Positions 27,806 through 58,128 of a stretch of DNA of 64,000 bases are shown in pieces. The notes under the pieces are model-generated. The model saw only the letters and a list, made by a program, of their open reading frames with translations, did not search any database and was not told the origin of the DNA. Where the stretch lies: the NCBI GenBank assembly GCA_021613535.1, contig CP075497.1, positions 1,054,001-1,118,000 of the forward strand, read 5' to 3'. This DNA comes from Adineta vaga. Its lineage: Eukaryota > Animalia > Rotifera. The position numbers were made by a program, and so were the translations under genes. Positions within the stretch are counted from its first letter, which is position 1. Every line of letters begins with the position of its first letter.

Positions 27806-28040
27806 AAAAATTTCAATTAGAAAGAAAATATCAACAGTGATCTTCATAGATAATTACTTCCGTTATATTATGATCATTTTTCTAGGAAACGTAAGTTTTC
27901 GAGGATAGATTTTTATTTTGAATTGTATATTTATGTTCAACAATGAATAAGAAGACTTTCTTTCTTGTAATATATGTAACAGGGTGGCCAAATGAAAAAG
28001 TTGAAAATCGGAAAAGTAATTTTTTGTTAGTCCTGTTATT

Positions 28041-28097
28041 CATCTTGAGGGTGGGTGTGATTAATATATCTATTTAACACCGACATACACCCACACC
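28041..28097. repeat. Telomere-like inverted-repeat element (copy K)
   Basis: CATCTTGAGGGTGGGTGTG - spacer - ACACCCACACC. CATCTTGAGGG is the reverse complement of the CCCTCAAGATG end seen in other copies. Confidence 0.8.
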
Positions 28098-28127
28098 ATC
28101 TTTATTATATCTGATAATGAAAATAAA

Positions 28128-29531
28128 ATGAGAAGTGCTTTCAAAAATGAGTGTACACGTGTTGGTTGTAGCGCGCATTATTTGAACAAAATTCTTCAAC
28201 ATGCATTGGTTAACAATAATGCAAAATGTGATGCTGCCCAATTGTTATTTAAATTAGTTCTATAGCAATTATTAGTAATATTCGTCAATCTCATAAACAA
28301 TCTCTACTATCAATATGTCCAGTTAATTATTCAGATACACGTTTCAAGGGAACATATTTGATATTAAATTCGTTTTTAAAAGTTTATTATGAATTACCAC
28401 ATATGCTAAGTGATAAACAGAAGGAAAATTATTTGAAAGTAGATTGTGATGGTTTAGAATAATTATGTGAATATCTAAAGGAATTTTATAAAATGATTGA
28501 AAAATTGAGTTGTCAAAAAGAACCAACGATACATCTCGTTGTCCCATATAAACAATGTTTGATAAATCTTTCTGTTATTGGTGATAATGAAAATTGATTG
28601 TTAATACCTTTAAAGAAGTATAATACTAAAGAATTACCTGATTATTGGGTTGTTCAAGATGTCCATTATATTGCTACAATGTTGCATTCAAATCCGAAAA
28701 GTTTTAACCATACACCACAATAACGATATCATGCAGAAACATTATTACAATTAGAATTTGAAAAATATCAAGAGTCTCATCCTCAACCATCATCATCATC
28801 AAATGGGAAGAACAAAAGAAAACCGATACAGCATCAGAAAAATACAAAATAATTATTATTATCAGTAGATGATATTTTTGATTTACCAACATCCCCTGAC
28901 GAATTATCAGATGAAGCAGAAACAACGACAGAAATCGACAGATATCTAAAAGATAAAACGAAAATTTCTAAAAGTATGAACGTACTAATCTATTGAAATG
29001 ACAACAAAACATTATATTCAACTTTAGCTCAAATAGCAAAACGTGTTTTATCCATACCAGCAACCAACACTTCAGTTGAAAGACTTTTTTCTGACAGCGG
29101 AAACACAATTACAAATCGTCGAAATGTATCACTGTTAAGAGAATTATTTCCATCATCTATTGAAAAAGTAAAAAAGAGAAAATATTCAATAGATAATGGT
29201 GTTAATATCGATTTATTACAAGAATATGATATTAGTGATGCACCTCAAGAAGATTATATTTATGATGTATCACTGGAAGATGATATTAATCGGAAGTCAC
29301 AAGAAGATGATGCTAATGATGAATTGCAAGATAGTCTTGATACTGTCAATTTAGAAGACGATTATGAAAAAGAAAATTATATCTTCAATGATTAAATCAC
29401 AGTATCGTTAACAATAAAGCAATAGTCTAATTTTCCTTACACACATTTGTTATTTTTAGTTTCGTTCCCATTCCCTAAATGTAAATGTAAATGGGAAACT
29501 TAGGGAAAAATAACGTTCCCGCAGGACACTA
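28128..29531 (+). mobile_element. hAT-superfamily transposase remnant (5'-truncated, pseudogenised)
   Basis: GCSAHYLN (CxxH), DTRF.GTYL, LS..KEPTIHLV, ATMLH, and dimerisation motif LAQIAKRVLSIPATNTSVERLFSDSG..ITNRR, with stops and frameshifts. Candidate right end ..GCAGGACACTA at 29531. Confidence 0.85.
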
Positions 29532-29758
29532 ATTGTATCTATCTTACTGGGTTGAGGTCCATGCGGACCCTAGGTGGGTAATAAGTGGTAGTCCTACAGG
29601 CGGGCGTATGAGGGTTAAATTTGGATGAAAAACAAGAAAAAACCAAATGAGACAAAGTGAGAGAGAGAAGAGGATACAGGACTTGAGTATCCTGGAGTAC
29701 CCAGTCTGCTTTATTGGTTTGAAGAAAAATGAGAAAAGTTTTGAAATGAAAAAAACAT

Positions 29759-31083
29759 CTATAAGTTTGCTCGAATAATATAATGAACTGTTTGATAAGG
29801 AGGCATTAGGTTGAATGGTTGGCCCATTCCTGTTGAGTCTGTTGTCCCATTTATTGTGTGTGTATGACTTCCATTCTCTTGTAAGGTGATATTTGCGTAA
29901 TCGGTGCTTATTGAATGTGAATGAGTTGAAGTAGAAACATAGGAAGATCCAGGGTATAAATAGAAAGAAACAGCAGTACCAGAATAATAAAGGTAGGCTG
30001 TTGTACTGGAGCCTGTTGATCCACTGTGATCGTGTCCTGGATCATTAACAACGTGGGAATGTGCTGGAATTGTGTTTGTCATAAGTGAACCTTGGTTATG
30101 ATTATGAGTGGGCAACTCTGCTACAGTTAAAGTGTGTGATGCATTGCCACCAGAGATGAGTGAAGTATCATTGATCGTAAGACTACCTAAAGGAAGTCTA
30201 GCCCGAAAATCAGGCAAATTAAAGGTGTTTCTGCCATTGCCTATTCCGTAAGTAATGCCAATAACAAGAAATAATGCACTATACGTTGACCGAGATACTG
30301 CAGAACCATCACAAAATAGCCATTTATTATCCGCTCCGACAAGCTGTTGTGCATCACCACTATACAGAAGAATGGTACCAATCGGCATGTCTAAAGCAAA
30401 CAGTAAAAGAGTTCGAACTCATGGTTAGTTAAAGTTAACTTATGATTATTTCATCGAGTTCCTAACTTCAGATAGACACATAGAGTACATGTCTATGAAT
30501 GGACTTTCAAATCTAGATACCACATTTGGAATTCTTGACGATTACTCTCTCTAAAATCAGAAACTCAGTGGAGCAATTATGCATCTGAGTACTTTTGCGG
30601 TTTTGCTAATGGAATAGTGATCTGCTTAAAGGCAAATTATTATGAATTTAAAGTCGAGAAGACACTGGCATGAAGTCCAAACGATTTTAGACCCAGTCAT
30701 GACTGGTTTACAGTCCGACCAGAACCCAGTTAAAACTGCACTGTAAAAAAGAGGGCAGAATAATAAGGTCTTTTTAGGGGTTTATTAACTTCATAAACCC
30801 TCGAAAGCCGCTTTTCTTATTCTATGGTTCTTGTAAATGATACATTAACAAGTCTTTTAAGGATACATGAATGCTCAACTACCCTTAAGGGTTTATTAAT
30901 CTACACTGTTCTGTACAGTGATGGGACTGGTGAACCCCTACCTATAGTTGTCAGTTTCTGTACATAAATCAGCGTATAAATACTCATAGCCATAGCTGCC
31001 AAGACCATGCCCGTTAATAAAAGTCCTAGGTAAATATACCAAGTCGCGCAAAATGTTTTTTTAACATTTTTTGTATTCTTCAT
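29759..31083 (-). CDS. Membrane-anchored phage tail-collar-domain protein, 2 exons (31083-30942, 30390-29759)
   Basis: MPIGTILLYSG..WLFCDGSAVSRSTYSALF.VIG.TYG.G.G..TFNLPDFRAR.PLG..HTLTVAELP.HNH..PPYQTVHYIIRA is a tail collar (PF07484-like) domain. The upstream TM exon splices in frame (G|GTAGGG..TTTAG|AC = Asp). Confidence 0.85.
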
Positions 31084-33220
31084 CGACGGATTACTGCAAA
31101 TAATAATTATGACATGCTCATATTTGATACAGTAGTACTCACATAGAATAGTCAGTGAAGAACGAACTGCTATAAAATGGTGGAGCAGTTGTTGATTCAA
31201 CTGCATTTTTTAAATATTGTTGTTGGGCATTCAAATGTGCTATCTAAGACAAAGAATGTAAGAGATTATTTTGATTGTATTTCTTGATATATAACTACCT
31301 TGTTTGCCCATCGATCTGATGTTGGTGTTAGAGTCAAAGATCTTCTTCTAGATTGATATACATGCATTTCGACTGCTTTTTGTAAGAAATTTGAATGACT
31401 GAATATTCGAAAAATTTTCTTTTCATTTTTTAATTATCGAGCGTCTAATTTAAGAAATCTTAATTATATTAAAGCTATAGAAATTCATAATATGATCCAA
31501 ACAACGGAGGCATTGAATGTAATTGAAATTTTTCAAAAAAAAATGTAAAGGTCATAATAAACTAAGAAGAACAAAAAAAGTACAATTTGAATTATAAATC
31601 ATAATACAGGTGACTACCGTATAACTGCCAGGATAGACAAAAAAACTGTTTTAAATATAGAGGATGATTAGAAAAGCACACCGATCTCTTCGATCTGCGA
31701 CCAGTATCAAATTATCCTCAATCCTGAAAGGATAAGTGAGCGAACGACACATGCCATGCTTGTCCGCGCTTCTGATTGGTCAATTGTTTTCGACCAAAAG
31801 GATTTGAGAAAAATGTAAAATCCAAGAAATCAATCAGACACTCGTCGTATCCACCTAAAACAATGAGATAAACTCTTTGGATTTCAAATCAGGGTAGACG
31901 TGAGTGAATATCAGTGATAAGACCCAAGATGTCAGTTGAAGGTAGATAGTAATCAGAATTATTGAATGGTGGATCGAGATTTCGGTGGTTTTGGAGATAT
32001 TTTAAGCTAGCCGGGGGATGTGCACTAGTGAGTACCGATTTCTAATAGGTATATGATTGTTTCGCATCACCTCAAGCTGATGCTTCTTGAATAGTTGTTC
32101 GATTCCGCTTAGAAAGTGAATGAATTAACATGCTCAGAGGTATGAATGTAGATACTCAGAAGGCAATAGGGTTGATGGAAAGAATAGTCTAGTACTGTTG
32201 TTTTAACTTTATAAAATAAATATCAAACAGGTTAATGCACGATTACGAGGGAAATAATCTAGCTATCTTAATTGGAATCAGTAATGCTCAGTATTACGTT
32301 TATGCATTTGCGGATTCACTAAATTCTATATTTAAAATTGATTCTTTCTTCTTCGGCTCTTGTCGTTTAAGCAAAAAGGATTGTTTCAATTTTGGTTGAG
32401 GAAGGGTGAGATTTCAAAAGTTTGAGTGTAACATGTTATTATAACGGAGCACAGAAGTCTCGAATATGAAACTAAGTGTTCCTCATGCTGTAACTTGAAT
32501 AGTATTTTTGTAAGTTCCATTGCTCATTTTCATTTCGTATGTCAGAAGAGTGAAATGTCTTATCGTATAAGGATATCCATATTGGAAGTAGATGAGACGG
32601 GGTTCGAAAAGTAAGATAAAACTGATCATAATAATCATAAAGTCTTTAGGAATACTGCGAATAAGGAAGCCTTGCTTTGTGACGGTCGATGAATAGTGTT
32701 CAAGTATTCCCTAGGAAAGTTGTCAGCATTGAAAAAGATTAATACCTAGAGTACAAAGAAGATACTTATTCTCTTATATGTCCTCTGTAAAAAAAACCTT
32801 CGAATTATTTACTACAACTATGGGAACAAATACATTTTGTTTCAATAATTTTCGTAATGTCTATCGTTGGAAAAAATGAAATATCTTAATGTAAACTAGA
32901 AAATGTGGCTGACATGATGACCTTCTCCATTTCTATTCAGCTTTGCTCAATGATATGATACACTAATCGGTGTATAACTTGGTCTTCTACGATATTTTTT
33001 GTGCGTTTCCGGATTCAGTTGAGCGAGGTCCAAAGGGCCAACGCGTTATTTGTTAAAATAGGGTCTGTTTTTGAATGGATTTCTACACTTCACAACATCC
33101 ACCACATCTCGAATGGTTTCCTTAGCGCCAATGACTGCAACAGAGAGTTATAACTAACATACAGGTAAGATTGGTGAAATATACCCAAATACCCCCAACA
33201 GATCGTTATCATGTAGTTAC

Positions 33221-33281: not shown

Positions 33282-35448
33282 TGAATATCTTGCTCAGTAA
33301 ATGAATTTCTAGCTTTGTTAGCACCATTACCCATAGAATTATCATTCATCTATATAAGTAGAAATAATCAAATTTAACAAACGACACGTTTCAGAACACA
33401 TAGTCATTGGTCTTAGAATAATTTTTCTAAAAATTACCTTTTGTATTATTGATTATGTTCTTTCACTTTAGGAAAGCTACAAATTCTTGATAAATAAACA
33501 AATTTTTAAAAGAATAAATCAATTGATGAGATATTTTTAATCTCGAATATGAAATGTGAGAAAAACTCACCTATTTCAGAAAATATTGCAAAACCATTAT
33601 CTATAAATTCTTTTTTAATTAATAGAGAACAATTCAAATTATCTCGAATAGATGCTTTTTTACTCAGATTAACTATTCTCTAATCTTATGTTTTATTTTC
33701 CGATTAGTCAATTCTGTAACTTATTTTAACAACAGATGATTTTTATGTCAACCAAAGACTGTCATACAAATTCAACCGCCATATTATTTTGACCTTATGA
33801 GTTATAATTTGATGTTACTTATCATTCTTAATTTCAATGATTTTGTTTATGTAACCAATAAAACTAATAATCATTAGAGAAGATGATCAGCGATAGTTTC
33901 TATCCAGCAAGATAAATTATAGGACAAATAGTATATAAAACCAAAACGAAATGAAAGTATTAAAAGTGATCATATGGCAATTTGATACACATATGTAATG
34001 TATACCATTATTTTAACAATATCGACAAAGAATAAAATGGCAAAATTAATTACTTCGAAGTAAAAAGACTGATGGTACAAATTGATTTCTCTTTTCTTAT
34101 CCTAAATATAAATTTTTTCTCTATGATTCATATTTTTCATGAAATACAAATACAAAAAAGAACAATTCAATATAACAGATGATAACGATAATGATAGGTA
34201 CTTCATTGCTATCATCATCTTTCCAATGTCAATGACTATTCAATAATTGTTAAATGTTTTAATCAATGATATGTATTTCCTTTAAATTATTTCATCGTTT
34301 TCAGTAATACTATATGAAGATATAAGTATCAAATGAAAGACAGGATAAGACAAAACGATCGTTTTCAAATATAATTATTGGTACGTTCATATAGATTCTG
34401 CATTTTTTCCTCATTTTAAATGATATTTCATTGATTAACGAAGTGATGATCTATTTGGTCAGTCTTTGTTTTTTTATTTGAATATTACGCAAGTTATTTA
34501 AGTTGCATATTATTAATGAATGCGTGAAATGATGTGAAAAACAACAACATTGCTTCAATTTAGTAACTACAGGATATATGCATATGCAAACATGACTCTA
34601 TAGTTTAATGTGAAAAAGAAAAACATAAGAGAAGGAGAAACAATACCATTATACAGTAGCATCGTGACGTTACTTCTTTCTATCTTTTATTATTATGAGT
34701 TATAGCTCGAAGAAAAATGAATCTCTTTTCTATTGTATGAAATCGAACACTATATTGCTTCATTTTTTCCTTAAATTATTTCAATAGCTTTCTATCCATT
34801 TTAAGTAAAAGGACTGTTTAGTTACTGAATTCACTGAAAATTATTTGATTTTGTTTTCAAATGTATGATAACGAGAAAAAAAAGACGCTCAACACTTAAA
34901 GGAAATCTGTATAATTTAGTTGTTAGTTTTGAATCAATGGAACTGCATTTACTATATACGTACATTTGAAGAGTATGTTAAATAACATGTTTACGAGTAT
35001 TGCATTGTGCAGTACATTTTAATAGAATATCTAATGATAGGCACCATCATGTTCGGAATGATTGTTAACTGTGATTTGATATCGATGGCAACAAGTGATC
35101 GAAAGTGCTGTTTGAGAGTAATAGTACAAAGTTTGTATCTCTATAAGGAAAGTAATAAACTATTTTCTGATTGACTTGAAGATAATTCAAACAGATGACG
35201 CTGATATTTCACAATCTATAACATATAAGAACTGCGGAATACTAGCAGATAAATTCGAATTTTTTCGCAACGTCCTATTCATTACATTGTCTTCTAATAG
35301 TTTAAATCTGTTACTAATTTGATGATGTTTTTTCTGAATAGAGATTCAATTATTCTATAAGTGATCTGGAAGAAATTTTTATCGTTATATAAATTAAACA
35401 CGTTCGAATCATATTTTCACATTGAAGTATCGTGTGAGAAAACTGATC

Positions 35449-36023
35449 ATGCAATCAAATCGCTTTCCATCGCTCACTTATCTCTGGTGCATCGCATCGA
35501 TTCTACTTATCATTGGAGGCAATGTTAATGCAGATAGCAAAAATGACATTGAGAAGCGTTTACAAACTGAACTTCTCGCATTGGGATTTCCAAATGGACA
35601 ATTACCTACGCTTACACCTGCTCTGGGAAATTATGTCGATGTCGTTGAAGTCAACAAACTGTTGTTTCTCTCAAGTGCTGCGCCACAAACGCCACAAAGC
35701 ACCTTTGTCAAAGGACGAGTTCCAACGGAAGTTAGTCTGGCCGATGCAATAATTGCTTCCAAATTAGCATGTGTACGTCAAGTGAATAGAATGAAAAACC
35801 ATTTAGGCGACCTAAATAAGGTGAAAAAAATTGTTTTCATCAATGGTAAAATACAGTCGCAGCCTGATTTTACTAATCACACTCTTGTTGTCGTGGATGT
35901 TCAAGCTTTCTAGTCAATGTATTCGGTGAGAAAGTAGGTAAACATGCGCGCACAACTGGTGGATTAACATCTTTACCATTCAATGTTACTCTCGAAGTAG
36001 AGACCATTGTTCAAGTGAAATAA
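35449..36023 (+). pseudogene. Bacterial-type Rid (YjgF/YER057c/UK114) family gene with signal peptide; 1-nt frameshift at ~35892
   Basis: GNYV..V..LLFLS..P..KGRV..LGDLNKVKKIV.ING..PDFTNH, continuing in another frame as GCSSFLVNVFGEKVGKHARTTGGLTSLPFNVTLEVE. Confidence 0.8.
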
Positions 36024-47503: not shown

Positions 47504-50500
47504 CTATTTATTTTTAGGCGTCGGCCATTGATCATCGGGAATATGGGTAGTAGTTTCTACTTCTTTTATTTTGGTTTGAGAATTTATTCTGGTCACTGTA
47601 AGTTTATAGTTAGGACTGCTTTCAGAACTTGCTGGATGTCCAAAGATTGTCTGCAGGTGCGTAGGGCCACATAAATCTGGCTCATTCTGATCATTTATTT
47701 TATTATGCAGAACTAATGTGGCTTTGTCAGCCAAAGCGTAAGTTGTGTCCTTATTTTTCGCTGAATCAGTTATGAGAACCGGTTCCTTTAAAGGGAATGT
47801 TACTTCTGCTTTAACAAATTGTGGATCTTGCGATAAGCATTGGTTTCCAATGATGTATTCCATGCCCTCTCTGAAACATTTGGTTTGATCATTTTTGTTA
47901 ACGAAATTTGTATGATTTTGTTTTTTAGCTATCTTATCATGTGACAGGTTGCCTTGTATATGGTCGTTTGGATGTCCTGCTGCGTTTGATCCATGAGGTT
48001 TAACACCTTGAGATCCATCTAACACGAATCTTTCTTCACCAAGATGATGTTTAAATCCTCCCATTATCAATGCATCTTTCTTGTACTGCTCCAATCTTTC
48101 AATATCATGAGCCTGATTAGCAAGGTTGGCCTTATTATTTTCCATTCTAATGGCTATATCATTTCTTAGTTGATTGGGATCTTTTCCTGTTTGTTGAGCA
48201 ATAACATTAAATAAACAATTGTTTTGATCACCATTTCGAATCATCGGTTCTTGACTGTCTGGCAAAGTCCAGTGACCCTGAGGATTATCGATCGTTGGTT
48301 TATGGTATTGTACTTCTATTGGATCACCACTTTTGTTCTCACCAATAATACGTATAACTTGTCCCTTGTCATCGAACACTTTAATTGATCTGCCAGTTTC
48401 ATCACTGAGTGATCCCAAGTGAGGTAGTCCAGCCTCGCCACCATCTTTTAAATCACGTACCATATCTTCTACTTTCTTTACTGCTTTTGGATCATCCGCT
48501 CCATATTTGAATTCATTTGGTATCCTATTATTTCTATCACCATCCTGAAAAAATTCTATTCTTCTTTGTGCTTGATAATTATTAATTTGAAATTGTATAT
48601 TTCTGTCTAAGTCTGCAGTTAATAATGTCATACTATGATTAATACCAACATCAGTAACTAGAACAATCAATTTACGTTGTATAATATTACAAATATGTTG
48701 CGATACATTCCTTGCTAATGCTCTGTATAAGTCATCGAAAGATTTATTTTCTCTTCCCAAATTGACTTGTTCAGGTTCTGGTACATTTTTAAGATCGATG
48801 TCTTTACTTGATGTTTCTGGAATATAAGTCGATACATAAGTTAGAGTATCTTCTTCTTTCATGCATATCCTGCGTTTTTGTTCACTTGTTGTGTGCTGTT
48901 GTTGTTGTTGTTCTAATTTCTTGTAATTTTGAGTTTCTTTTTCATCTAATTTTTCTTCTTTGTATATATTTTCGACTACTTCGTTTAATTTTTCTATGAA
49001 ATTAGGCACAAATTTATCTAACTCCTCTAAAGTTTGTTTTACTTGAACAGCTTTCAATACTGCCGATAAACCGGATATTTTCTGTGTAGCAATACCTTTA
49101 ACTATACCAATAGTTATAGTTTTTAATGCACTTTGTTGTTCAGTTGAATGGAATAATTTCATTGCTTTTTGTCTGATAAGACGTTCATAGTAATTATTTC
49201 GATTTTTTTCATCTAATTGCAGCATTTTTTTCACTTGATGATTGATTAATAAAGCATTTTGTATTGGCTTTTCAACTCGTTTCATAACTTCGTCTTGTAT
49301 AATAGGCATCAATGATTTACTTACACCATGATCAACGAGTTGTGTTATTAATTCTTTCGCTATACCTTTCGCTAAACCTGCTGCAATAGCTTTCGCTGCT
49401 AATATCCATCCTGTTTTTACTGTTGTCGTCATAACTGTACCGATGCTACTCACTCCTGCCAGTACAGTTTTTGCTACATCTAGCATTGCACCAAATCCGA
49501 CACATACAATAGCTACAGTCAAACTAATAGCTTTTTGTATTCCATATGATTTCCAATCAAAATCTCGATTGATAATGCCGCGTTGTACTATGATAATTAG
49601 ATCACTAACACCTTCAGCAATTAATGCTGTACCGATGGCACTACCTATACCGGCAGTATATACAGCAAGTGCTGCTCCAGCAACTATTTGTACAATACCA
49701 AGACTGGCAACAATAATAACTGCAGACCAATCAATCGGTTTCAATCCTTTTATTTTAAAGGATCCGAAAAATCCATTATTTCTATATTCTTCAATTTCAT
49801 CGCTATACAACGTAATATCTTGATCTCGTGGTAATAATTGTTCAATATCTAAATATTCAACTTCAATATCATAATTATCTTTTCTTGCTTGATCAATACA
49901 TCCATGTTCTTGTTCTTCATTATTAACTTCTTCTATTGTATTTCCAATTGCTAATTCAATTGTATATTTTTGTATACTAAATAAAAGCATTTTGCATCTT
50001 AATTGTTCAGATAAAGCATCAGAAATTGATGTTTGTTGAATGACATGTAACATTGGTTCTAAATTCTCTTCGATAATTTGTTTTGCTCGTTTAAAATCCT
50101 TAATTGCTGCATCAATTTTGTCTTTATTTCGCTTACAATCTTTTCCATATTCAGCAAGTAGTGCGTATCCACGATTATAATATGCATTAACTTGAAAATG
50201 TTCATCTAATTTGATTGCTTTTGTAAATTCTTCGATTGCTTCTTGATTTTTTCCTGCATCTTTTTTCTTTAAACATTCATTTCCAATTAAAACATGAAAA
50301 CATGGATTTCGAATTAAAGTATTTTCTGCATTATCTTTCAAAATTTCTTGTTCAAATTCTTTAAATTTTCGCAACATCTCGTCTTTTGTTATTGTTTTCG
50401 TTGATTCTTGCATTTTTAACCAAATACCAAATCTATCTTCAACGGCACGTAATTTTATTTTCTTTTCTTTTGTTTGTATATCATCATTTCCATTAATATT

Positions 50501-53500
50501 TGTAAGTAACTTACAAAATTCTTCAAATACTGCATCTTTAATTGTTACTTCATCTATTTGTAGTACTGCTTTACCTATTTCAATTTCTTCCTGTTCATCT
50601 CGAATTGTTTTTAAATTCAAATAATTATTTTCATCTTGTTGTAATAAAATAAATTGACCAGTGCCTTTATTTCCTGTTCTTGATGTTCGACCAACATTTT
50701 GTTGTTCAACTCGTTGATTTGGTGGTAAAAATGTAACCAAAACATGTAATCCACCATATTTTTCAATTTTATCAGCTCGAATGTCTGTTCCTCTACCAGC
50801 AATATTTGTAGCAATAATGATTTCACCCGATGTCAATTCTTCTTCGAGAATTTTCGATTCATCTCCTGTTCTATATGTTTTTATTTTTGATTGATCATAA
50901 TTCGCCTTAATCAATCGATTTTTAATTTCATCCACTTCTTGAATATATTTCGTAATTATTAATACACCTCGTCCATTTTTGAGTTTATTCATTGAACTTT
51001 CAATAATATTCTCATACCAATCATCGACATTATTCACAATAATTGGTGTTAATTCTTGATATTGTTTTTTTCTAAATGGTGGAATAATAACATTGTCTAC
51101 TTTATAAATTTCACTTAATAATTTTTGAGCAGCTTGACTACCAAGTGTACCTGTTAATCCAAAAAGATTTGAACCATATCGTCTGAAATAAGTTACATTT
51201 GAGATAAAATTCGTTGTAAAACTTTCGGCACAAATTTTAGCACCATGTTTCATCTGTAAAAATTGATGTAATCCATTACTCCAATGCATATTTGCTTGAA
51301 TAATTCCTGTATTACTTGCATCAACTGGTACAATCTTTCCATTTCTAAGAAGATAATGTTGTTGATTATGACATCGATATTTTGCATGAATTGCACTATC
51401 AATCCATTTGGTAAGTTGACATTCCAATATTAATTTTCTTAAATGTTCAGGAATTTTAATTTCAGGATATTTCTCTGGTATATTTTGATCAATATCTCGA
51501 ATTAATTTCCTTAGATGTTTTTCTGTACAATTTTTAATAAAATCTTCTTTTGATTCTTTAATTTCAACAGCTTGTGTAGCAATATCATATCTAATCTGAC
51601 CTTTATCATCAAATATATCAGGTTGTTCAATGAAATAAGTTTTACCATTAGTTTCTTCAATATATTTGGCAACTTCTCCAATCTGAATCCAAATTGCTGC
51701 TAAAAGTGGTTCTAAATTATCCATTGCCGGCATTTGAGATGATAACATCACAATATGATTTCTTTCATCAATTAACATTGAATCAACTTCATCAACAATT
51801 GCCACATCACATTTTCGACCATTTCGAGTACCTAATTTACTATATTCATCACGTAAAATATCACCTTGAAAATCACTTGCTGCACCATAAACAATATCAG
51901 CTGTATATCGTATTTTAATATCTACTAAATCTTTTCCATTATGAGATACAGTTAAATTGAATTGTTGATAAAATTCCTTTAATTGTATCGATTGTGGCTT
52001 AGCTAATTCAGGTGAACTTGTAACAACATCTACATGATGTCCATCAAGAGCTTTAATTGCAGCTAACATGGCTACAATTGTTGTTTTTCCTTCTCCAGTA
52101 TTGATTTGTACGAGACGTCCAGTTTTTTGTTCAGAATTTATCAATATCAACAGTGATAATACTTGAATTTCTCTTACAGGAAATTTGCTCGTAATTTCAA
52201 TTGCTTTCATTACAATGGCAATTTTTTCATGATGAGTAACGGAATTCGATGGTTTTTTAATGTCTTCTGTCCATTGTTGTATGTCTGATGTTGACCATTG
52301 TTGAATGCAATTAGAATTTGGATATAGAACAGATTTACCTCGATAAATACTTTGAATATTTTCATATTCTTCTGTAATTTTTTTCTCGTCAATAAATGAT
52401 ATTGTTTGATTTGGATTTAAATCTAAGATTTCTTCGATTAATTCTTGAAAGTTTTTATCATAAGAACGTTGAAATGTTTGAAATATCGCTAAATCATGTA
52501 TTTGTTCAGTTAAATCTTCTGATAAAATCGATGTTAAAATATCAATTAACATTTTTCCTTGAATATTATTATCAAATTCTTTTAAACGATATTCATAAAT
52601 TGGATCTAATGCATCAAATAAATGTTTGATATCTTCATTTGAATCAATATAATTAATTATTTGTTGTATTGATTTAAGTGTCCAACCAGAATGTAAAATT
52701 TTAATCAATTTTCCATGTAATTTCTTTATTAATTCACATTTGTTAATGTCAATTATTTGATTATTTAAATCTAAATTCTTATATAGAATTTGTTTATTTG
52801 TTGAATTGATTTCTACACAAATTTGATTTAAAATTTCTTCAATTTCATCATCAGATATTTCATTTATAAATTCCTTAACTGAATTTAATTTTCTTTTTTC
52901 AATTCCAATTAAATCTCGATCTAATATTTTCATTCGATTCTTTTCTGTACTATAAATTTCATTAATTTTCAATATATGTTTAATATTCTTCTTTAATTTA
53001 CTCTCTTGACGAAAATCAATTTCATTACCTTGAATTATTTCTGATGCTTCAATTACATACAAATATTCAGAATTATTTTTATTAATTAAATCTTCTTCTT
53101 GTGATAATAAACAAATTGATATACGTAATCCATTTTCAAATTTTTCAGTTTCATCAGTTGTTATTGGATATGTTACATGTTCATTATTTTCTAATAAATC
53201 TTTGATGAATTTTAATTCAACAGAATGATAATTGACCATTTTTCTTTGTTTATACGATTGAAATAAACTTAATACATAGATTTTCGGGAATTGTTTATGA
53301 CGAAGTTCAATAACTTGTTTTTGTGTAATAAAATTCCATTTGTCAAAATTATTAATAAATAATTTCTGTTTTTGTTTCGATAAATTTTCTGCCATAGATT
53401 TCATATTTGCAAGAGTAAATACTCCGCAATTATAATCATCAAATTGATCACATGATCGATGAAATTTGAAATTGACATTTTTTAATTGTTTAGTAAGAAT

Positions 53501-56500
53501 ATTTTGTATTTCTATTCGTTCTACAATGGAATGATGTTCACCCATCGAATCTTTGTATAATACAATATTTTCTTTCTTCTTTTCATTGTATATTAATGCT
53601 AAACTAATCCAATGATTATTCGCAATATTCAATGGAATAATCGTTGTTCGATGATCTTGTTTATATTCTTTTAAAACATCATATAGATTTCTTTCTTCTT
53701 GTTTTCCTAATGGTTGAGTAATTCGAAATTTAGTTCGATCAAATTCTTTCATCCATTCTATTAATATTATTGCTATATCTTCTGCTTTATAACAATATGT
53801 TGTTTCTGCTTGATTATATGCATTTTGTTCAATTGATGTTTTCTTTCTTCTAAAATGATAATTTTGAGTATCATGAAAATATTGTGAATAAAATGTAAAT
53901 TTCTTCGATAATAATATTTCAATTAATTGTTCATTGAATTTTAATTGTAAATTTTTTAAATTAATTTTATTTGATATTTTATTTATTAAAAAATATTCTT
54001 TACTTTCTATTGTTAAATTACAATTAAATAATTGAATAAAAAATTGAATTAATTCATCAATATTTGGATCTTCTATTAATTGAGATAAAACAAAATGAAT
54101 TATTTTTATTCTATATGGTAAATATTCATTTAATTTTCTTAATTGTTCAATATGAAATTGTTTCAATTGTTTCTTTAACCATAATTCACGTAATTTAATA
54201 AAACAAATTTGAAAATGACAATCATTCATTATAATATTCCATGCTTTGATTTCATTTAATTGAATTAACATTAATAAAACATCATTTAATATTTCAAGAT
54301 GAAATTGACATAGATTTTGTTTTTCAATTAATGATTCTAATAAATTTTCAATTGAATAAACATTTTGATCTTGTGTAAGAATAAATGTATTTAATAAATG
54401 AATATATTTACGAAAATTTTCTAATTCAAATATATCAACACCAGCAATGGAAGTTATTTCAAATGTTTTAACTAATAATTCACTACATAGAATTTCTTTT
54501 CGCCATTGTTTTCTATGAAATTTATGAAAAATATTTGTATCAATTCTTCTTCGATTGAAAACACTGTTGTTTAATGCACATAATAAACGAAATTTTTCTA
54601 AATTATTACAATCAGTAGTATTCGTATGATCCAAGGAAATAAATTCATCGATTGGTTTTAATTCATCAGGATGAACATCAAGTCGTTGTTTAAGTTTATT
54701 GTAATATGTTTGTAACCAAGTATTATCTGATGGATTTTCGTTAATAAATTTGTCTAAACTTTCAAATAGAAGTTTATTTAGGAGAAAATCTTGATTATCT
54801 TCTAATTCTAATGTACGACATTTTACTAAATCAATAATTGTTGTTTCTCGAGATATTTGAGAAGAATATTGTTGAAGTTCTTTTGATAAAATACGAGCAC
54901 AAAGAATTCTTATTTCAATACTTTCGTTTTTTTGTTCTAAAAGTTTTGCACATTTTTCTACGACTTTCATTGATATATTTTTCTTTTGTATAGCAATTTT
55001 TACTGTTGCATAAAATAAATACTTCTTTAATTTTTCATCTTTTTCTTCATCAATTAATAATAATTGTTCCCAAAGTTGTTTTATAATTTCCTCTGATAAT
55101 TCCATATTACGACTTAAACAAACAGCTAAAATTCCGATAACCATAACAGATTTGAGTAATTCGGTATGTTCAGTTATTCGATTGATATTTGTATTTGTTA
55201 GACCTTGTTTAAGATTTATTTCAAATAATATTTCACTTATCTTAGAACGTATATCATCGAAGTTCTGATCATGTTTATTTGTTAAGACATCAATTAAACA
55301 TTGAATTTGCTTCTCACTGATGCCATATCCTTCTTGAACAAGTTTTCTTAAGTTTTCTAATGCAGTTGTATTAAAATCTAAGATTTGACAGCATTCAAGT
55401 TTGTATAATTCATCCGGTAGAAAAGATTCAATCGTAGTACCATCATTTTTATATTTTAAAATTTGTATATCATGTTGATCACATTCAATTATTGAATTTT
55501 TGATCATTTTCACAATACTCTCACGAACTTCATCATGTATTGTGCGAAAAGCAACTTCTAACAGATATGGTAATTTATCAGAAAGTAAGTTTTCATTTTG
55601 TTTTACGTTAGATATTTGAATTAATAATATCAATACTTGTTTAGATGTTTCGTTAACATAAACATCGTGAGTTTGAATTCGATCTATTATCATTGGTAGA
55701 AATACTATTAAATTTTCATTTTGTGGATCTTTAATTATAAATTGAGTAATGTCATCAATGGAAATATTATGATCATGTTCAATAGATCTTCCAATTTCAA
55801 TCCAATCAATATTAAAATCATGTGGTAATATTTTAATCAATACTTTGAAGGCATCGCTTCTTAAATCGATATCATATTTAATTAATGATTGTAATATATT
55901 GATAGTATCTAATGTAGAATTTTCTTCTTCTTTGATTAAATTTTCCAAAGCAATTTTTCGTATTTCTAAATCATTCCGTGAATTTTTCAATAAATTTAAA
56001 TTTCGTGAATAATTATTGTTGTTTTCGGACATGTTGAGTCGATCAAGAATAGATTTTGAAATATCATATCCATTTTGATATTCAGCGTATAATAAATCGA
56101 AAATATCGTTACGAAAATTTGATAGATGTTGTAAAATAAATTCGTCGATATTCGGAATATTTTTCAAACTCATTTGTTTAGTCTTAACTAATGATTTACT
56201 TAACGAAATTATGTTCTTAGCTGTAGACGTGTCTAATAATGATAATTCTATGTACTCATGACATTTTTCAATGAAAAATTTTGGTAAAATCTGTATTTCT
56301 AATTCAATAATTTCGATGATCAGTTCAAGTTTTTCATTCATATGAAAATATTTCGTTAACTTTTCAAAACAATTCAATGTGAGTCGATTTTTCTTTTTAA
56401 CATATTCTAAACAATCATCAACTATACTCGAATCATCACTTAAACACTTGTTTTCTAATCGAATAGCGTCACTAATATATGCAATATCAATATCTATACA

Positions 56501-57433
56501 TTGTTGTAGAATTTTCAATGTATCATCTCTCACTTGTTTATCTTCATTTTCAATCAATATTCGATAGAAATATTTTAGTACACTTGGATATTCTCGTAAA
56601 ATCAATTTTCTACTCAGATCTTCAATTAATTTTCGTTGATCAAATGGTATTGTTGGTAATATTTCATCTAATGTTCTCTCTATATCGCTAAATTTAGACA
56701 TGTCGATGAACTTAAATATTTTTATAATAGCTAATGATACTTCTATATTTTCAGTTATTTGTCCTGCTTCTATGAGCTTTTTCAGTGCTCCTAATGAGAG
56801 TTTGTCTCGATTAGATAATTCCGCATTCTCTGCTATGTATCCAAGTAGAATAATTAAATCATTGATATTAATCATTTTACTAGCTTCTACTTTTCTAGTA
56901 CAATAGTCTAGTTCATATAGAACATCATCGAGTTCATAAATGATATCCATAGCTTTATCACAATCGACTGTACTATTTAATTCGTATTCTAATTGAATTC
57001 TCGTATTGTTCAAAGTGTTCTGTTTATTAGTATCTTCGAACTGTTTGAGTAGAATATCTAAGTTGTTGAATGATAACAAATCTGGAATTAATTTTCTTAT
57101 ATTAGTCAACCATGTTAATCGATCATTTAGTGCAAGACCTAACTCATTCGCCACTTGAATATTTCTACTATCGGTACGTAATGTCTCATCGATTTCATCA
57201 ATCTTCTCTATGTATCGATCATTTTCTTTACGAAAGAATTTCTTCATTTCCTCTTGGATACTTTTCTCAAACGCTTGTCCTCTCTCCTTCAAAATTACAA
57301 ACAAATCGATGACGATATCTCTCAAATCAATTTTATCCTGGTCTCGCGGTGAAAAATTCTTATTTTCTAACGTAGCACTTAACTTCATTAATTGTTTATC
57401 TTGGAGTTTATATGCCTCGTCCTTATCAATCAC
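47504..57433 (-). CDS. Giant SecA-like ATPase polyprotein (helical repeats, Ulp1/C48 peptidase, SecA DEAD, TPR, hydrophobic segment, OTU-like, C-terminal toxin-like domain)
   Basis: 3309-aa uninterrupted ORF. SecA motifs QINTGEGKTT, DEVDSMLID, GLHQFLQMKH, GLTGTLG, ATNIAGRGTDI, GGLHV, RVEQQNVGRTSRTG. C48 motifs NNHWISL..KDSMG..QFDDYNCG. Confidence 0.9.
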   Translation of the reverse strand: MIDKDEAYKLQDKQLMKLSATLENKNFSPRDQDKIDLRDIVIDLFVILKERGQAFEKSIQEEMKKFFRKENDRYIEKIDEIDETLRTDSRNIQVANELGLALNDRLTWLTNIRKLIPDLLSFNNLDILLKQFEDTNKQNTLNNTRIQLEYELNSTVDCDKAMDIIYELDDVLYELDYCTRKVEASKMININDLIILLGYIAENAELSNRDKLSLGALKKLIEAGQITENIEVSLAIIKIFKFIDMSKFSDIERTLDEILPTIPFDQRKLIEDLSRKLILREYPSVLKYFYRILIENEDKQVRDDTLKILQQCIDIDIAYISDAIRLENKCLSDDSSIVDDCLEYVKKKNRLTLNCFEKLTKYFHMNEKLELIIEIIELEIQILPKFFIEKCHEYIELSLLDTSTAKNIISLSKSLVKTKQMSLKNIPNIDEFILQHLSNFRNDIFDLLYAEYQNGYDISKSILDRLNMSENNNNYSRNLNLLKNSRNDLEIRKIALENLIKEEENSTLDTINILQSLIKYDIDLRSDAFKVLIKILPHDFNIDWIEIGRSIEHDHNISIDDITQFIIKDPQNENLIVFLPMIIDRIQTHDVYVNETSKQVLILLIQISNVKQNENLLSDKLPYLLEVAFRTIHDEVRESIVKMIKNSIIECDQHDIQILKYKNDGTTIESFLPDELYKLECCQILDFNTTALENLRKLVQEGYGISEKQIQCLIDVLTNKHDQNFDDIRSKISEILFEINLKQGLTNTNINRITEHTELLKSVMVIGILAVCLSRNMELSEEIIKQLWEQLLLIDEEKDEKLKKYLFYATVKIAIQKKNISMKVVEKCAKLLEQKNESIEIRILCARILSKELQQYSSQISRETTIIDLVKCRTLELEDNQDFLLNKLLFESLDKFINENPSDNTWLQTYYNKLKQRLDVHPDELKPIDEFISLDHTNTTDCNNLEKFRLLCALNNSVFNRRRIDTNIFHKFHRKQWRKEILCSELLVKTFEITSIAGVDIFELENFRKYIHLLNTFILTQDQNVYSIENLLESLIEKQNLCQFHLEILNDVLLMLIQLNEIKAWNIIMNDCHFQICFIKLRELWLKKQLKQFHIEQLRKLNEYLPYRIKIIHFVLSQLIEDPNIDELIQFFIQLFNCNLTIESKEYFLINKISNKINLKNLQLKFNEQLIEILLSKKFTFYSQYFHDTQNYHFRRKKTSIEQNAYNQAETTYCYKAEDIAIILIEWMKEFDRTKFRITQPLGKQEERNLYDVLKEYKQDHRTTIIPLNIANNHWISLALIYNEKKKENIVLYKDSMGEHHSIVERIEIQNILTKQLKNVNFKFHRSCDQFDDYNCGVFTLANMKSMAENLSKQKQKLFINNFDKWNFITQKQVIELRHKQFPKIYVLSLFQSYKQRKMVNYHSVELKFIKDLLENNEHVTYPITTDETEKFENGLRISICLLSQEEDLINKNNSEYLYVIEASEIIQGNEIDFRQESKLKKNIKHILKINEIYSTEKNRMKILDRDLIGIEKRKLNSVKEFINEISDDEIEEILNQICVEINSTNKQILYKNLDLNNQIIDINKCELIKKLHGKLIKILHSGWTLKSIQQIINYIDSNEDIKHLFDALDPIYEYRLKEFDNNIQGKMLIDILTSILSEDLTEQIHDLAIFQTFQRSYDKNFQELIEEILDLNPNQTISFIDEKKITEEYENIQSIYRGKSVLYPNSNCIQQWSTSDIQQWTEDIKKPSNSVTHHEKIAIVMKAIEITSKFPVREIQVLSLLILINSEQKTGRLVQINTGEGKTTIVAMLAAIKALDGHHVDVVTSSPELAKPQSIQLKEFYQQFNLTVSHNGKDLVDIKIRYTADIVYGAASDFQGDILRDEYSKLGTRNGRKCDVAIVDEVDSMLIDERNHIVMLSSQMPAMDNLEPLLAAIWIQIGEVAKYIEETNGKTYFIEQPDIFDDKGQIRYDIATQAVEIKESKEDFIKNCTEKHLRKLIRDIDQNIPEKYPEIKIPEHLRKLILECQLTKWIDSAIHAKYRCHNQQHYLLRNGKIVPVDASNTGIIQANMHWSNGLHQFLQMKHGAKICAESFTTNFISNVTYFRRYGSNLFGLTGTLGSQAAQKLLSEIYKVDNVIIPPFRKKQYQELTPIIVNNVDDWYENIIESSMNKLKNGRGVLIITKYIQEVDEIKNRLIKANYDQSKIKTYRTGDESKILEEELTSGEIIIATNIAGRGTDIRADKIEKYGGLHVLVTFLPPNQRVEQQNVGRTSRTGNKGTGQFILLQQDENNYLNLKTIRDEQEEIEIGKAVLQIDEVTIKDAVFEEFCKLLTNINGNDDIQTKEKKIKLRAVEDRFGIWLKMQESTKTITKDEMLRKFKEFEQEILKDNAENTLIRNPCFHVLIGNECLKKKDAGKNQEAIEEFTKAIKLDEHFQVNAYYNRGYALLAEYGKDCKRNKDKIDAAIKDFKRAKQIIEENLEPMLHVIQQTSISDALSEQLRCKMLLFSIQKYTIELAIGNTIEEVNNEEQEHGCIDQARKDNYDIEVEYLDIEQLLPRDQDITLYSDEIEEYRNNGFFGSFKIKGLKPIDWSAVIIVASLGIVQIVAGAALAVYTAGIGSAIGTALIAEGVSDLIIIVQRGIINRDFDWKSYGIQKAISLTVAIVCVGFGAMLDVAKTVLAGVSSIGTVMTTTVKTGWILAAKAIAAGLAKGIAKELITQLVDHGVSKSLMPIIQDEVMKRVEKPIQNALLINHQVKKMLQLDEKNRNNYYERLIRQKAMKLFHSTEQQSALKTITIGIVKGIATQKISGLSAVLKAVQVKQTLEELDKFVPNFIEKLNEVVENIYKEEKLDEKETQNYKKLEQQQQQHTTSEQKRRICMKEEDTLTYVSTYIPETSSKDIDLKNVPEPEQVNLGRENKSFDDLYRALARNVSQHICNIIQRKLIVLVTDVGINHSMTLLTADLDRNIQFQINNYQAQRRIEFFQDGDRNNRIPNEFKYGADDPKAVKKVEDMVRDLKDGGEAGLPHLGSLSDETGRSIKVFDDKGQVIRIIGENKSGDPIEVQYHKPTIDNPQGHWTLPDSQEPMIRNGDQNNCLFNVIAQQTGKDPNQLRNDIAIRMENNKANLANQAHDIERLEQYKKDALIMGGFKHHLGEERFVLDGSQGVKPHGSNAAGHPNDHIQGNLSHDKIAKKQNHTNFVNKNDQTKCFREGMEYIIGNQCLSQDPQFVKAEVTFPLKEPVLITDSAKNKDTTYALADKATLVLHNKINDQNEPDLCGPTHLQTIFGHPASSESSPNYKLTVTRINSQTKIKEVETTTHIPDDQWPTPKNK

Positions 57434-58128
57434 TCTCGCAAAGCTGACAGAATTTTCTGTAACGCAGGCTTCAGACGAAATTTGAAATCATCACTTAGTC
57501 CTATCTCTACTATCAGTCTATCGAAATTGTTCGTAACACTAGAAGCAGTACAAAATTTCATCTTTTGGAATCGTTTTGCGCACAGCTTTTTACTTTTACA
57601 AACATTCTTTAATATCATCAAGTTCGCAAATGCTATAGAAATATCGCTACCACTCACCAAATATCCTTCTTTCTGATTATGCTCAACGAAATCAATTTCT
57701 GAATTTGTACCCAATGTTGCTGTAATCTTTTCTTTAAATCTCTGTTTTTCCGAGTCATATTCTGTTGTATCCAATGAATCCTTCATGAATATTGTAATCT
57801 TTCCATTCTCTGGTACTAAACCGAATGTGAACCAATGTTCTTTATGATTGCGAATAAATGTGTCTTTTTGTTTTTTAATTTCACATATGGCAAACAGACC
57901 AGCTGGACTCTTCTTAATGTATTCTTTGATTTTACTGTCGATATCGGAGCAACTATCAAGTATGTATTTCTTAATACTATTTTGCAACGAAACAGCATTG
58001 AATGTATGATCAGTGATATAAAGAATTTGAAATCGAGCTCCTTCAAATTGCTGTGTATTAGTTAACGAAACATCGGATGGTACTGATTGTGTGGATGCTG
58101 ACGAACGATCTCGTCCACTGTTCGACAT
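57430..58128 (-). CDS. 232-aa ORF with a degenerate Ulp1/C48-like domain; probably the N-terminus of the SecA-like gene (frameshifted)
   Basis: ATG start. HWFTFGLV..IFMKDSL..Q..FANL parallels HWISLALI..LYKDSMG..Q..LANM in the giant ORF but lacks the catalytic Cys. Its TGA overlaps the GTG of the next ORF. Confidence 0.7.
   Translation of the reverse strand: MSNSGRDRSSASTQSVPSDVSLTNTQQFEGARFQILYITDHTFNAVSLQNSIKKYILDSCSDIDSKIKEYIKKSPAGLFAICEIKKQKDTFIRNHKEHWFTFGLVPENGKITIFMKDSLDTTEYDSEKQRFKEKITATLGTNSEIDFVEHNQKEGYLVSGSDISIAFANLMILKNVCKSKKLCAKRFQKMKFCTASSVTNNFDRLIVEIGLSDDFKFRLKPALQKILSALRE

What the first reader, a model, noticed from the sequence alone, without database searches (positions are those of the whole stretch)
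29759..31083. Phage tail-collar domain domesticated as a spliced, membrane-anchored animal protein
Seen: a complete tail-collar domain plus HxH-repeat fibre (HNH, HSH, HDH, HSH, HTH). It is fused in frame through a 551-bp GT-AG intron to an exon encoding a basic N-terminus and a TM helix (type II anchor). Established: collar domains and HxH metal-binding motifs belong to trimeric phage tail fibres such as T4 gp12, which bind bacterial surfaces. Inference: a horizontally acquired fibre displayed on the animal cell surface, possibly a bacterial-recognition or adhesion receptor.
Basis: partly seen in the sequence, partly recalled or inferred. Interest (0 to 1): 0.7.

Follow-up and report, generated by a model that had tools for sequence, protein, structure and literature searches.

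The report
Phage fibre tip anchored on rotifer cells
A microscopic animal (a bdelloid rotifer) carries a spliced gene that joins a membrane anchor to the needle-shaped module that phage tail fibres use to grip bacteria; it belongs to a rotifer-wide gene family with a fixed scaffold and a fast-changing tip, and it likely works as a cell-surface receptor for microbes.

Summary
The 551-nt GT-AG intron is joined at exactly 30942/30390 in an RNA-type contig, and two more introns (49, 55 nt) appear upstream. The gene has four exons and encodes 317 aa, not 258; it aligns without gaps to an Adineta ricciae protein. Layout: cytosolic N-tail, one TM helix, Pfam Collar (7e-19), five HxH motifs and a variable tip, matching the T4 gp37 and cyanophage A-1(L) fibre ends. 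A homotrimer is predicted (0.77, best control 0.00). It is not a contaminant: depth equals the flanks, the neighbours are host-type genes, and no other phage structural gene is in the window. Named relatives come from three bdelloid genera and fall in one weakly supported clade with TM-anchored, secreted and long-fusion subfamilies. The phase-1 acceptor before the collar is kept in 8 of 8 related loci. The ten histidines are near-invariant while the tip is hypervariable. The donor is unresolved (phage, bacterium or giant virus). Binding to microbes is inferred, not shown. The domain is auto-annotated in bdelloid databases and flagged HGT in one supplement, but I found no description of the architecture.

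The parts
31299..31367 (-). Exon 1 coding part (ATG at 31367; residues 1-23, cytosolic tail)
   Evidence: Covered by X13 contig up to 31373; open frame and gap-free match to A. ricciae P0001
31244..31298 (-). Intron 1, 55 nt, GT-AG, phase 0
   Evidence: Joint 31243/31299 in X13; ends checked
31143..31243 (-). Exon 2 (residues 24-57, cytosolic tail)
31094..31142 (-). Intron 2, 49 nt, GT-AG, phase 2
   Evidence: Joint 31093/31143 in X13 and X14
30942..31093 (-).
30964..31044 (-). Transmembrane helix, residues about 74-100, predicted type II signal anchor
   Evidence: Hydropathy 2.09, charge +4 on N side and 0 on C side; 21 of 27 identical in A. ricciae
30391..30941 (-). Intron 3, 551 nt, GT-AG, phase 1; position conserved across the TM-anchored subfamily; contains a short high-copy repeat near 30758-30831
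   Evidence: Joint in X13; same acceptor position in L161-L168; depth spike in X1
29759..30390 (-). Exon 4: the whole foreign module (residues 108-317) and stop codon
30191..30379 (-). Phage tail collar domain PF07484
   Evidence: E 7e-19, full profile; pLDDT about 90
29828..30187 (-). Needle inserted into the collar: outward arm with three HxH (30106-30098, 30061-30053, 30034-30026), return arm with two HxH (29923-29915, 29866-29858)
   Evidence: fold match to 8kec and 2xgf
29924..30025 (-). Variable tip between third and fourth HxH (residues 230-263), rich in Tyr/Phe, Ser, Gly; predicted ligand-binding end
   Evidence: 17 of 34 identical to the orthologue vs 145 of 175 elsewhere in the ectodomain, Fisher p 1.7e-4; low pLDDT 132-146 in ectodomain numbering
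29762..29827 (-). C-terminal strand that returns to complete the collar
   Evidence: Strand 202-206 in the model; alignments to 2xgf and 1ocy run to both C-termini

Best explanation
This is a spliced four-exon bdelloid rotifer gene for a 317-residue single-pass membrane protein whose outer part is a phage-fibre-type collar and histidine needle, predicted to form a metal-locked trimer, and it likely serves as a surface receptor whose variable tip binds microbial surface molecules. Shown: gene structure, splicing, domain content, host context, family. Predicted: N-in/C-out topology, homotrimer, one metal ion per HxH triad as in T4 gp37. Inferred: an early bdelloid took up a collar-needle gene once; a phase-1 intron placed a host TM exon in front of it; duplications kept the scaffold and diversified the tip, giving anchored, secreted and long-fusion versions with different specificities. 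The anchor takes the place of the virion; the tip would meet bacteria, fungi or biofilm at the body surface or gut lining, for capture, feeding choice or defence.
For: Splice joints. Gap-free 317-aa orthologue in A. ricciae. TM directly before the collar in 9 of 11 named bdelloid models of the subfamily that have an N-terminal part; 7 more models were too short to test. Acceptor two bases before the collar in 8 of 8 metagenome loci (6 distinct), with an upstream TM exon ending in a phase-1 donor in 7 of 8; control tiles 4 of 84 and 4 of 30. N-glycosylation sequons observed/expected 1.35 in the TM clade vs 0.90 outside (rows are related, so not independent). Ten needle histidines in 44-46 of 46 rows; 84 of 93 clade members keep exactly five HxH; tip entropy 2.17 vs 0.9-1.5 elsewhere. 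Foldseek 8kec E 2e-7, 2xgf 9.5e-4. Trimer score 0.77 vs best control 0.00, partner pLDDT 78, runs agree in 95% or more of contacts; the mark was reached by 21 of 30 solved pairs and 0 of 23 single chains in microbes, 7 of 16 in animals. In gp37 the matching 28-residue tip binds LPS and OmpC (PMC6957217, Introduction and passages). Virophage collar fibres bind cyanobacterial LPS (PMC12724248, abstract only).
Against: No binding, localisation or induction data. The trimer pass may come from likeness to solved fibres. A Gly/Ser loop can vary by weak constraint alone; no dN/dS was possible. The positive-inside bias fits in only 6 of 9 TM-bearing models, and 2 of 11 models lack a TM (they look like models that skip the TM exon). 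The 551-nt joint rests on one contig of one run whose RNA label is a guess. Single origin is weakly supported (SH 86 with 65 unnamed rows inside; SH-aLRT 62). The fungal-infection study does not mention the domain in its text or in the supplements I could search. gp37 needs chaperones gp38 and gp57A to fold (PMC6957217); I did not look for substitutes.
Confidence: 0.5

Rival explanations
1. Same trimeric fibre, but the ligand is the animal's own matrix, cuticle, mucus or an inert substrate: an adhesion or structural surface fibre with no role in recognising microbes.
For: Anatomy and conservation fit equally well. One A. vaga collar gene in a published table is steadily expressed and unchanged between ground and flight (PMC12220480 supplement row). 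No mention among pathogen-induced genes in the parts searched.
Against: Many paralogues with diverging tips on a fixed scaffold suit a repertoire against varied foreign ligands better than one self ligand.
Confidence: 0.22
2. The conserved function is metal binding: the HxH needle captures or withholds iron at the surface and the tip is free to drift.
For: The histidines are the best conserved feature and their number is fixed at five in 84 of 93 rows. Phage HxH fibres have been proposed as iron ligands (PMC11705849, passages).
Against: In gp37 the ions are structural and needed for folding (PMC6957217), which explains the conservation without a scavenging role; five buried ions per trimer is a poor store (inference).
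Confidence: 0.1
3. The protein is a type II resident of an inner compartment (Golgi, lysosome, digestive vacuole or secretory granule) where the needle sorts or tethers cargo, and it is never displayed outside.
For: Topology alone cannot tell plasma membrane from organelle; the 73-residue cytosolic tail is conserved (48 of 73) and could carry sorting signals.
Against: Sister subfamilies carry signal-peptide-like N-termini and no anchor, which points to an extracellular use of the module.
Confidence: 0.13
4. Artefact: a contaminating phage or bacterial fragment, or a dead viral insertion next to a chance hydrophobic frame.
For: GC3 of the gene (0.28) is above four other long frames of the window (0.14-0.20); a hAT transposase remnant lies just downstream.
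Against: Three GT-AG joints in RNA-type contigs; DNA depth equal to the flanks in X3 and X5, with contigs running unspliced from exon 4 into the intron; gap-free orthologue; no phage structural family in 31 other frames of the window; named relatives in three genera.
Confidence: 0.02

Closest known systems
T4 long tail fibre gp37 C-terminal D10 collar + D11 needle (PDB 2XGF; PMC6957217)
   Same: Collar with the needle inserted into it and closed by the C-terminal strand; out-and-back HxH stem; short tip inserted into the stem (28 residues there, 25-34 in this family); Z 9.6, rmsd 2.5 over 78 residues.
   Different: Five HxH instead of seven iron sites; about 20% identity; carried by a TM helix and cytosolic tail instead of a virion fibre; spliced; has five N-glycosylation sequons.
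Cyanophage A-1(L) long tail fibre (PDB 8KEC)
   Same: Best solved match by sequence (E 5.9e-8) and fold (E 2e-7; Z 10.8, rmsd 3.6 over 139), covering collar and needle.
   Different: Virion protein with an N-terminal attachment part; 28-29% identity.
   Same: Collar fold, Z 10.8, rmsd 2.7 over 90 residues.
   Different: The aligned part is mostly the collar; gp12 has a compact head with a single metal site (recalled, not from a call) rather than a five-motif needle.
Virophage DSLV2 tripartite tail proteins (PMC12724248) and giant-virus collar proteins (CroV, Orpheovirus)
   Same: gp37-like collar fibres used outside tailed phages; the DSLV2 trimer is reported to bind Synechococcus LPS (abstract).
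   Different: Still viral, heterotrimeric in DSLV2, no TM anchor.
Bdelloid 'Phage tail collar domain-containing protein' database entries (e.g. A. ricciae CAF0744954.1 / UniRef100_A0A814Z5L0; A. vaga FUN_003816-T1 flagged HGT in the PMC12220480 supplement)
   Same: The same family; automatic domain label and HGT flag already exist.
   Different: No description of the TM anchor, needle, conserved intron, subfamilies or function was found in my searches.

Membership tests
Phage tail collar domain (PF07484) | Profile match above the gathering score | tested here: met
   68 bits vs 24, whole profile
gp37-type collar-needle fibre end | Needle inserted into the collar, collar closed by the C-terminal strand | tested here: met
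   Model and alignments run 1-208 against gp37 813-1026 and 1-207 against 8kec 159-379
gp37-type collar-needle fibre end | Repeated HxH motifs on outward and return arms | tested here: met
   Five motifs, 3 out and 2 back, near-invariant in 46 rows
gp37-type collar-needle fibre end | Intertwined trimer | tested here: inconclusive
   Prediction passes (0.77 vs best control 0.00) but may rest on likeness to solved fibres
gp37-type collar-needle fibre end | Metal ions bound by the HxH triads | not testable with these tools
   Iron rode along but is not scored
gp37-type collar-needle fibre end | Tip binds a bacterial surface receptor (LPS, porin) | not testable with these tools
   Only the position, size and variability of the tip were tested
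Phage or tailocin tail fibre (virion part) | Encoded in a tail gene module and attached to a baseplate | tested here: not met
   No tail, capsid or baseplate family in 31 other frames; N-terminus is a spliced TM exon
Type II single-pass membrane protein | One TM helix, no N-terminal signal peptide, positive charge on the N side | tested here: met
   TM at 74-100 after a 73-residue polar tail; +4 vs 0; by sequence only
Horizontally acquired, domesticated bdelloid gene | Lies in host DNA, spliced, orthologues in relatives | tested here: met
Horizontally acquired, domesticated bdelloid gene | Nested within a defined donor clade with strong support | tested here: inconclusive
   Nearest outside rows are unnamed or mixed viral and bacterial, with low support
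Pore-forming toxin with a fibre as aiming module (long-fusion paralogues only) | Aerolysin, MACPF or CDC fold in the N-terminal domain | tested here: inconclusive
   Atlas leads at 0.77, below its reliable range; fold searches list only Ig-like and helical-bundle matches, best Z 8.1

The most novel reading that the evidence does not exclude
Bdelloid rotifers have turned a viral receptor-binding fibre into their own repertoire of microbe receptors: a multi-gene family of membrane-anchored, secreted and effector-fused trimeric needles with a fixed iron-histidine scaffold and hypervariable tips, an animal recognition system built from the tool phages use to pick their hosts.
Probability: 0.4. Interest if true: 0.85.

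Novelty: new variant of a known kind. Interest (0 to 1): 0.64.

Why it matters
Most described foreign genes of bdelloids are enzymes (own knowledge; the pathogen study seen stresses biosynthetic genes, RNA ligases and glucanases). Here a structural host-recognition module of viruses has been fitted with a host membrane exon, kept in three genera and multiplied with changing tips. If the tips bind microbes, this is a new source of animal pattern-recognition or feeding receptors and a direct test of what horizontal transfer gives these animals beyond metabolism. The 209-residue ectodomain sits on one exon, so it is easy to express and assay.

Tried and rejected
No whole genome is held for the window, so paralogues in this genome were not counted. 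Alternative donors near 30942: the cut at 30933 is also in frame, but the contig joint is at 30942. Runs X15, X17 and X20 cover only parts of exon 4 and show no joint, which is no evidence either way; no run is on record as RNA. The careful IQ-TREE search did not finish in two calls, so only the quick tree is reported; no AU test was run. Five of 367 domain rows were removed as duplicates, and rows without both collar and return arm were left out, before the 362-row tree. Donor: best prokaryotic locus 39% and best viral locus 38% over the full length, no supported sister group. Pore-forming idea for the long-fusion N-domain: no such fold listed in Foldseek or VIA searches of a 490-residue model; the domain was not split, so it stays open. 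The profile search of 1.84 billion representatives gave 72,235 unnamed hits dominated by multi-repeat proteins and added no taxonomy. Literature: 'tail collar'+'rotifer' 0 papers; +'horizontal gene transfer'+'metazoa' 0 (16); 'bdelloid'+'phage tail' 1, unrelated by its listing (17); 'tail collar'+'eukaryot' 27 and 'phage tail collar'+'animal' 11, none on an animal gene by their listings; 'PF07484'+'metazoan' 0 (88); two searches listed nothing relevant. PMC11258130: text has no 'collar' (58); 12 of 16 supplement files and file 13 gave none; files 9, 11, 16 and one too-large file were not searched and some were cut, so infection data for these genes may exist unseen. The bioRxiv version has no 'collar' in its text (87); its supplements are closed. 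Earlier scan notes held no look-alike.

Full report
Host and context. The window is AT-rich and its long frames include a rhodopsin-type 7TM receptor, an LRR membrane protein, a CD225 protein, a VIT/VWA protein, a P-type ATPase in pieces and a 3327-residue SecA-like frame. The best named relatives of the collar exon are bdelloid rotifer proteins, first Adineta ricciae at 78%. I read the host as an Adineta-like bdelloid (inference). None of 31 other long frames matches a phage structural family; the PHROG matches found were a phosphoesterase, an ATPase and one family of unknown function.

The observation. The frame 30418-29759 on the minus strand holds a complete Collar profile (E 7e-19) and a weaker Gp10_C match, and 21 PHROG families, 19 of them in the tail category. 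Five HxH motifs follow; 0 of 5000 shuffles reach five. A 551-nt GT-AG phase-1 intron joins this exon in frame to a TM exon.

Splicing. Contigs of run X13 skip exactly 30391-30941, 31094-31142 and 31244-31298, each with GT-AG ends on the minus strand; X14, from the same study, shows the 49-nt joint and has a contig that begins seven unplaced letters before 30942. These runs are only guessed to be RNA, but they leave the long intron uncovered. DNA-type runs X1, X3 and X5 cover it, show none of the three joints, and have the same depth here as in the flanks. The 551-nt joint rests on one contig. The four exons give 317 residues from ATG 31367 and align without a gap to A. ricciae P0001, also 317 residues.

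Anatomy. Residues 1-73 polar tail, 74-100 TM helix (hydropathy 2.09; +4 before, 0 after), 109-175 collar, then a needle with HxH at 203, 218, 227, a tip at 230-263, HxH at 264 and 283, and a last strand. The AlphaFold model of the ectodomain (pLDDT 77.5, tip low) matches the cyanophage A-1(L) fibre (E 2e-7), the T4 gp37 needle (9.5e-4) and gp12 (1.8e-3); Z 10.8, 9.6 and 10.8. In gp37 the needle is an insertion into the collar, holds seven iron ions, and ends in a 28-residue tip that binds LPS and OmpC (PMC6957217, Introduction read, other passages seen). Three copies of the ectodomain are predicted to form a trimer: 0.77 against a best control of 0.00, pLDDT 78, runs agreeing in at least 95% of contacts; the mark was reached by 21 of 30 solved pairs and 0 of 23 single chains in microbes, by 7 of 16 pairs in animals, and a pass may come from likeness to solved fibres.

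Family. Among the 240 listed rows of two searches (best 120 of 2296 and of 969 hits), 31 carry bdelloid names from Adineta, Rotaria and Didymodactylos and none names another animal; the unlisted hits were not seen. A third search added A. vaga and R. sordida. In a 362-row FastTree, the window and 27 named bdelloid rows lie in a 93-row group (SH 86) with 65 unnamed rows and none of the 144 prokaryotic or viral loci. In a 67-row IQ-TREE quick tree the 23 bdelloid rows are one side of a branch (SH-aLRT 62) and split into a TM-anchored group (12 rows, 89), a signal-peptide group (3 rows, 99) and a long-fusion group (7 rows, 92). One origin is compatible with the data, not proven. The donor is not resolved: the module occurs in phages, bacterial genomes and giant viruses.

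The anchor is a family trait. Of 18 named models of the TM group, 7 lack an N-terminal part, 9 have a TM helix just before the collar and 2 have none; those two equal close paralogues minus the TM stretch, which suggests skipped exons in the models. In eight metagenome loci (six distinct) the acceptor AG lies two bases before the first collar codon, as in the window, and seven have an upstream TM frame ending in a phase-1 donor, against 4 of 84 and 4 of 30 control tiles. N-glycosylation sequons are 1.35 times expectation in the TM group and 0.90 outside the bdelloid clade. The charge bias for type II holds in 6 of 9.

Fixed scaffold, changing tip. The ten needle histidines are present in 44-46 of 46 rows, and 84 of 93 clade members have exactly five HxH, while outside rows range from 0 to 8. 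The tip is the least conserved part (entropy 2.17 vs 0.93-1.52); against the orthologue it is 17 of 34 identical vs 145 of 175 (p 1.7e-4), and pairs 70-80% identical in the scaffold share 40% in the tip. This is the pattern expected of a binding repertoire, but relaxed constraint on a loop would look similar.

Mechanism. Most likely a trimeric, metal-locked needle held outside the cell by three TM helices, its tip binding microbial surface molecules (0.5). Rivals: adhesion to self or substrate (0.22), an inner-compartment role (0.13), metal capture (0.10), artefact (0.02). Gene, splicing and family are shown; topology, trimer and metal are predicted; ligand and role are inferred.

What is known. 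The domain label exists in databases, and a supplement of PMC12220480 lists an A. vaga collar gene as HGT with a Microbacterium phage tail protein as top hit and steady expression (file cut; three 'collar' rows seen). Ten literature searches found no paper describing the family; the library lacks most subscription papers and some supplements were not readable. PMC12724248 (abstract and outline only) and PMC11705849 (passages) give the nearest functional precedents. Verdict: a real, undescribed variant of a known module, interest 0.64.

Noticed in passing
P0179, P0171, P0242, P0250 and relatives; L170-L174: A second bdelloid subfamily joins a signal-peptide-like N-terminus and a roughly 430-residue domain without any Pfam match to the same collar-needle. 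All 55 hits of that domain are bdelloid-named or unnamed. The model is confident (pLDDT 78) but matches only Ig-like sandwiches and helical bundles at Z 8 or less; it has a Gly/Ser-rich amphipathic segment that is unmodelled. Possible secreted effector aimed by the fibre.
   Followed up: partly
P0251 (A. vaga), P0249 (A. ricciae): The same long N-domain is fused here to a different, shorter collar-like end that Pfam Collar does not detect: a possible swap of fibre ends or a second acquisition.
   Followed up: no
P0127 (A. ricciae); A. vaga FUN_001755-T1 in the PMC12220480 supplement: In both species a gene model joins VPS13 to a collar domain, with a TM helix just before the collar in P0127; probably two neighbouring genes merged by annotation, showing conserved position.
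   Followed up: no
P0130, P0134, P0137, P0138, P0149 and others: Prokaryotic proteins of about 700 residues that join a pilin N-methyl motif, FN3 and several collar domains; a similar one is named from Saccharibacteria (P0162). A cellular, anchored use of collars parallel to the rotifer case.
   Followed up: no
window 28997-29395 (+) and about 28000-29640: hAT transposase dimerisation remnant (E 6.5e-9) with high-copy ends, directly downstream of the gene.
   Followed up: partly
window 30758-30831: Short high-copy element inside intron 3 (depth about 1040 vs 110-220 in X1); the intron is far longer than the other two.
   Followed up: no
window 47504-57487 (-): Single 3327-residue open frame with SecA DEAD and P-loop domains and a RickCE-like protease domain, likely another foreign-derived gene.
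   Followed up: partly
window 59376-60755 (-): 459-residue frame with about nine tandem copies of a 15-residue Arg/Ser/Glu repeat and no Pfam match.
   Followed up: no
window 35398-35913 (+): YjgF/RidA-like frame with a signal-peptide-like start (E 1.2e-5, below cut-off), possibly foreign.
   Followed up: no
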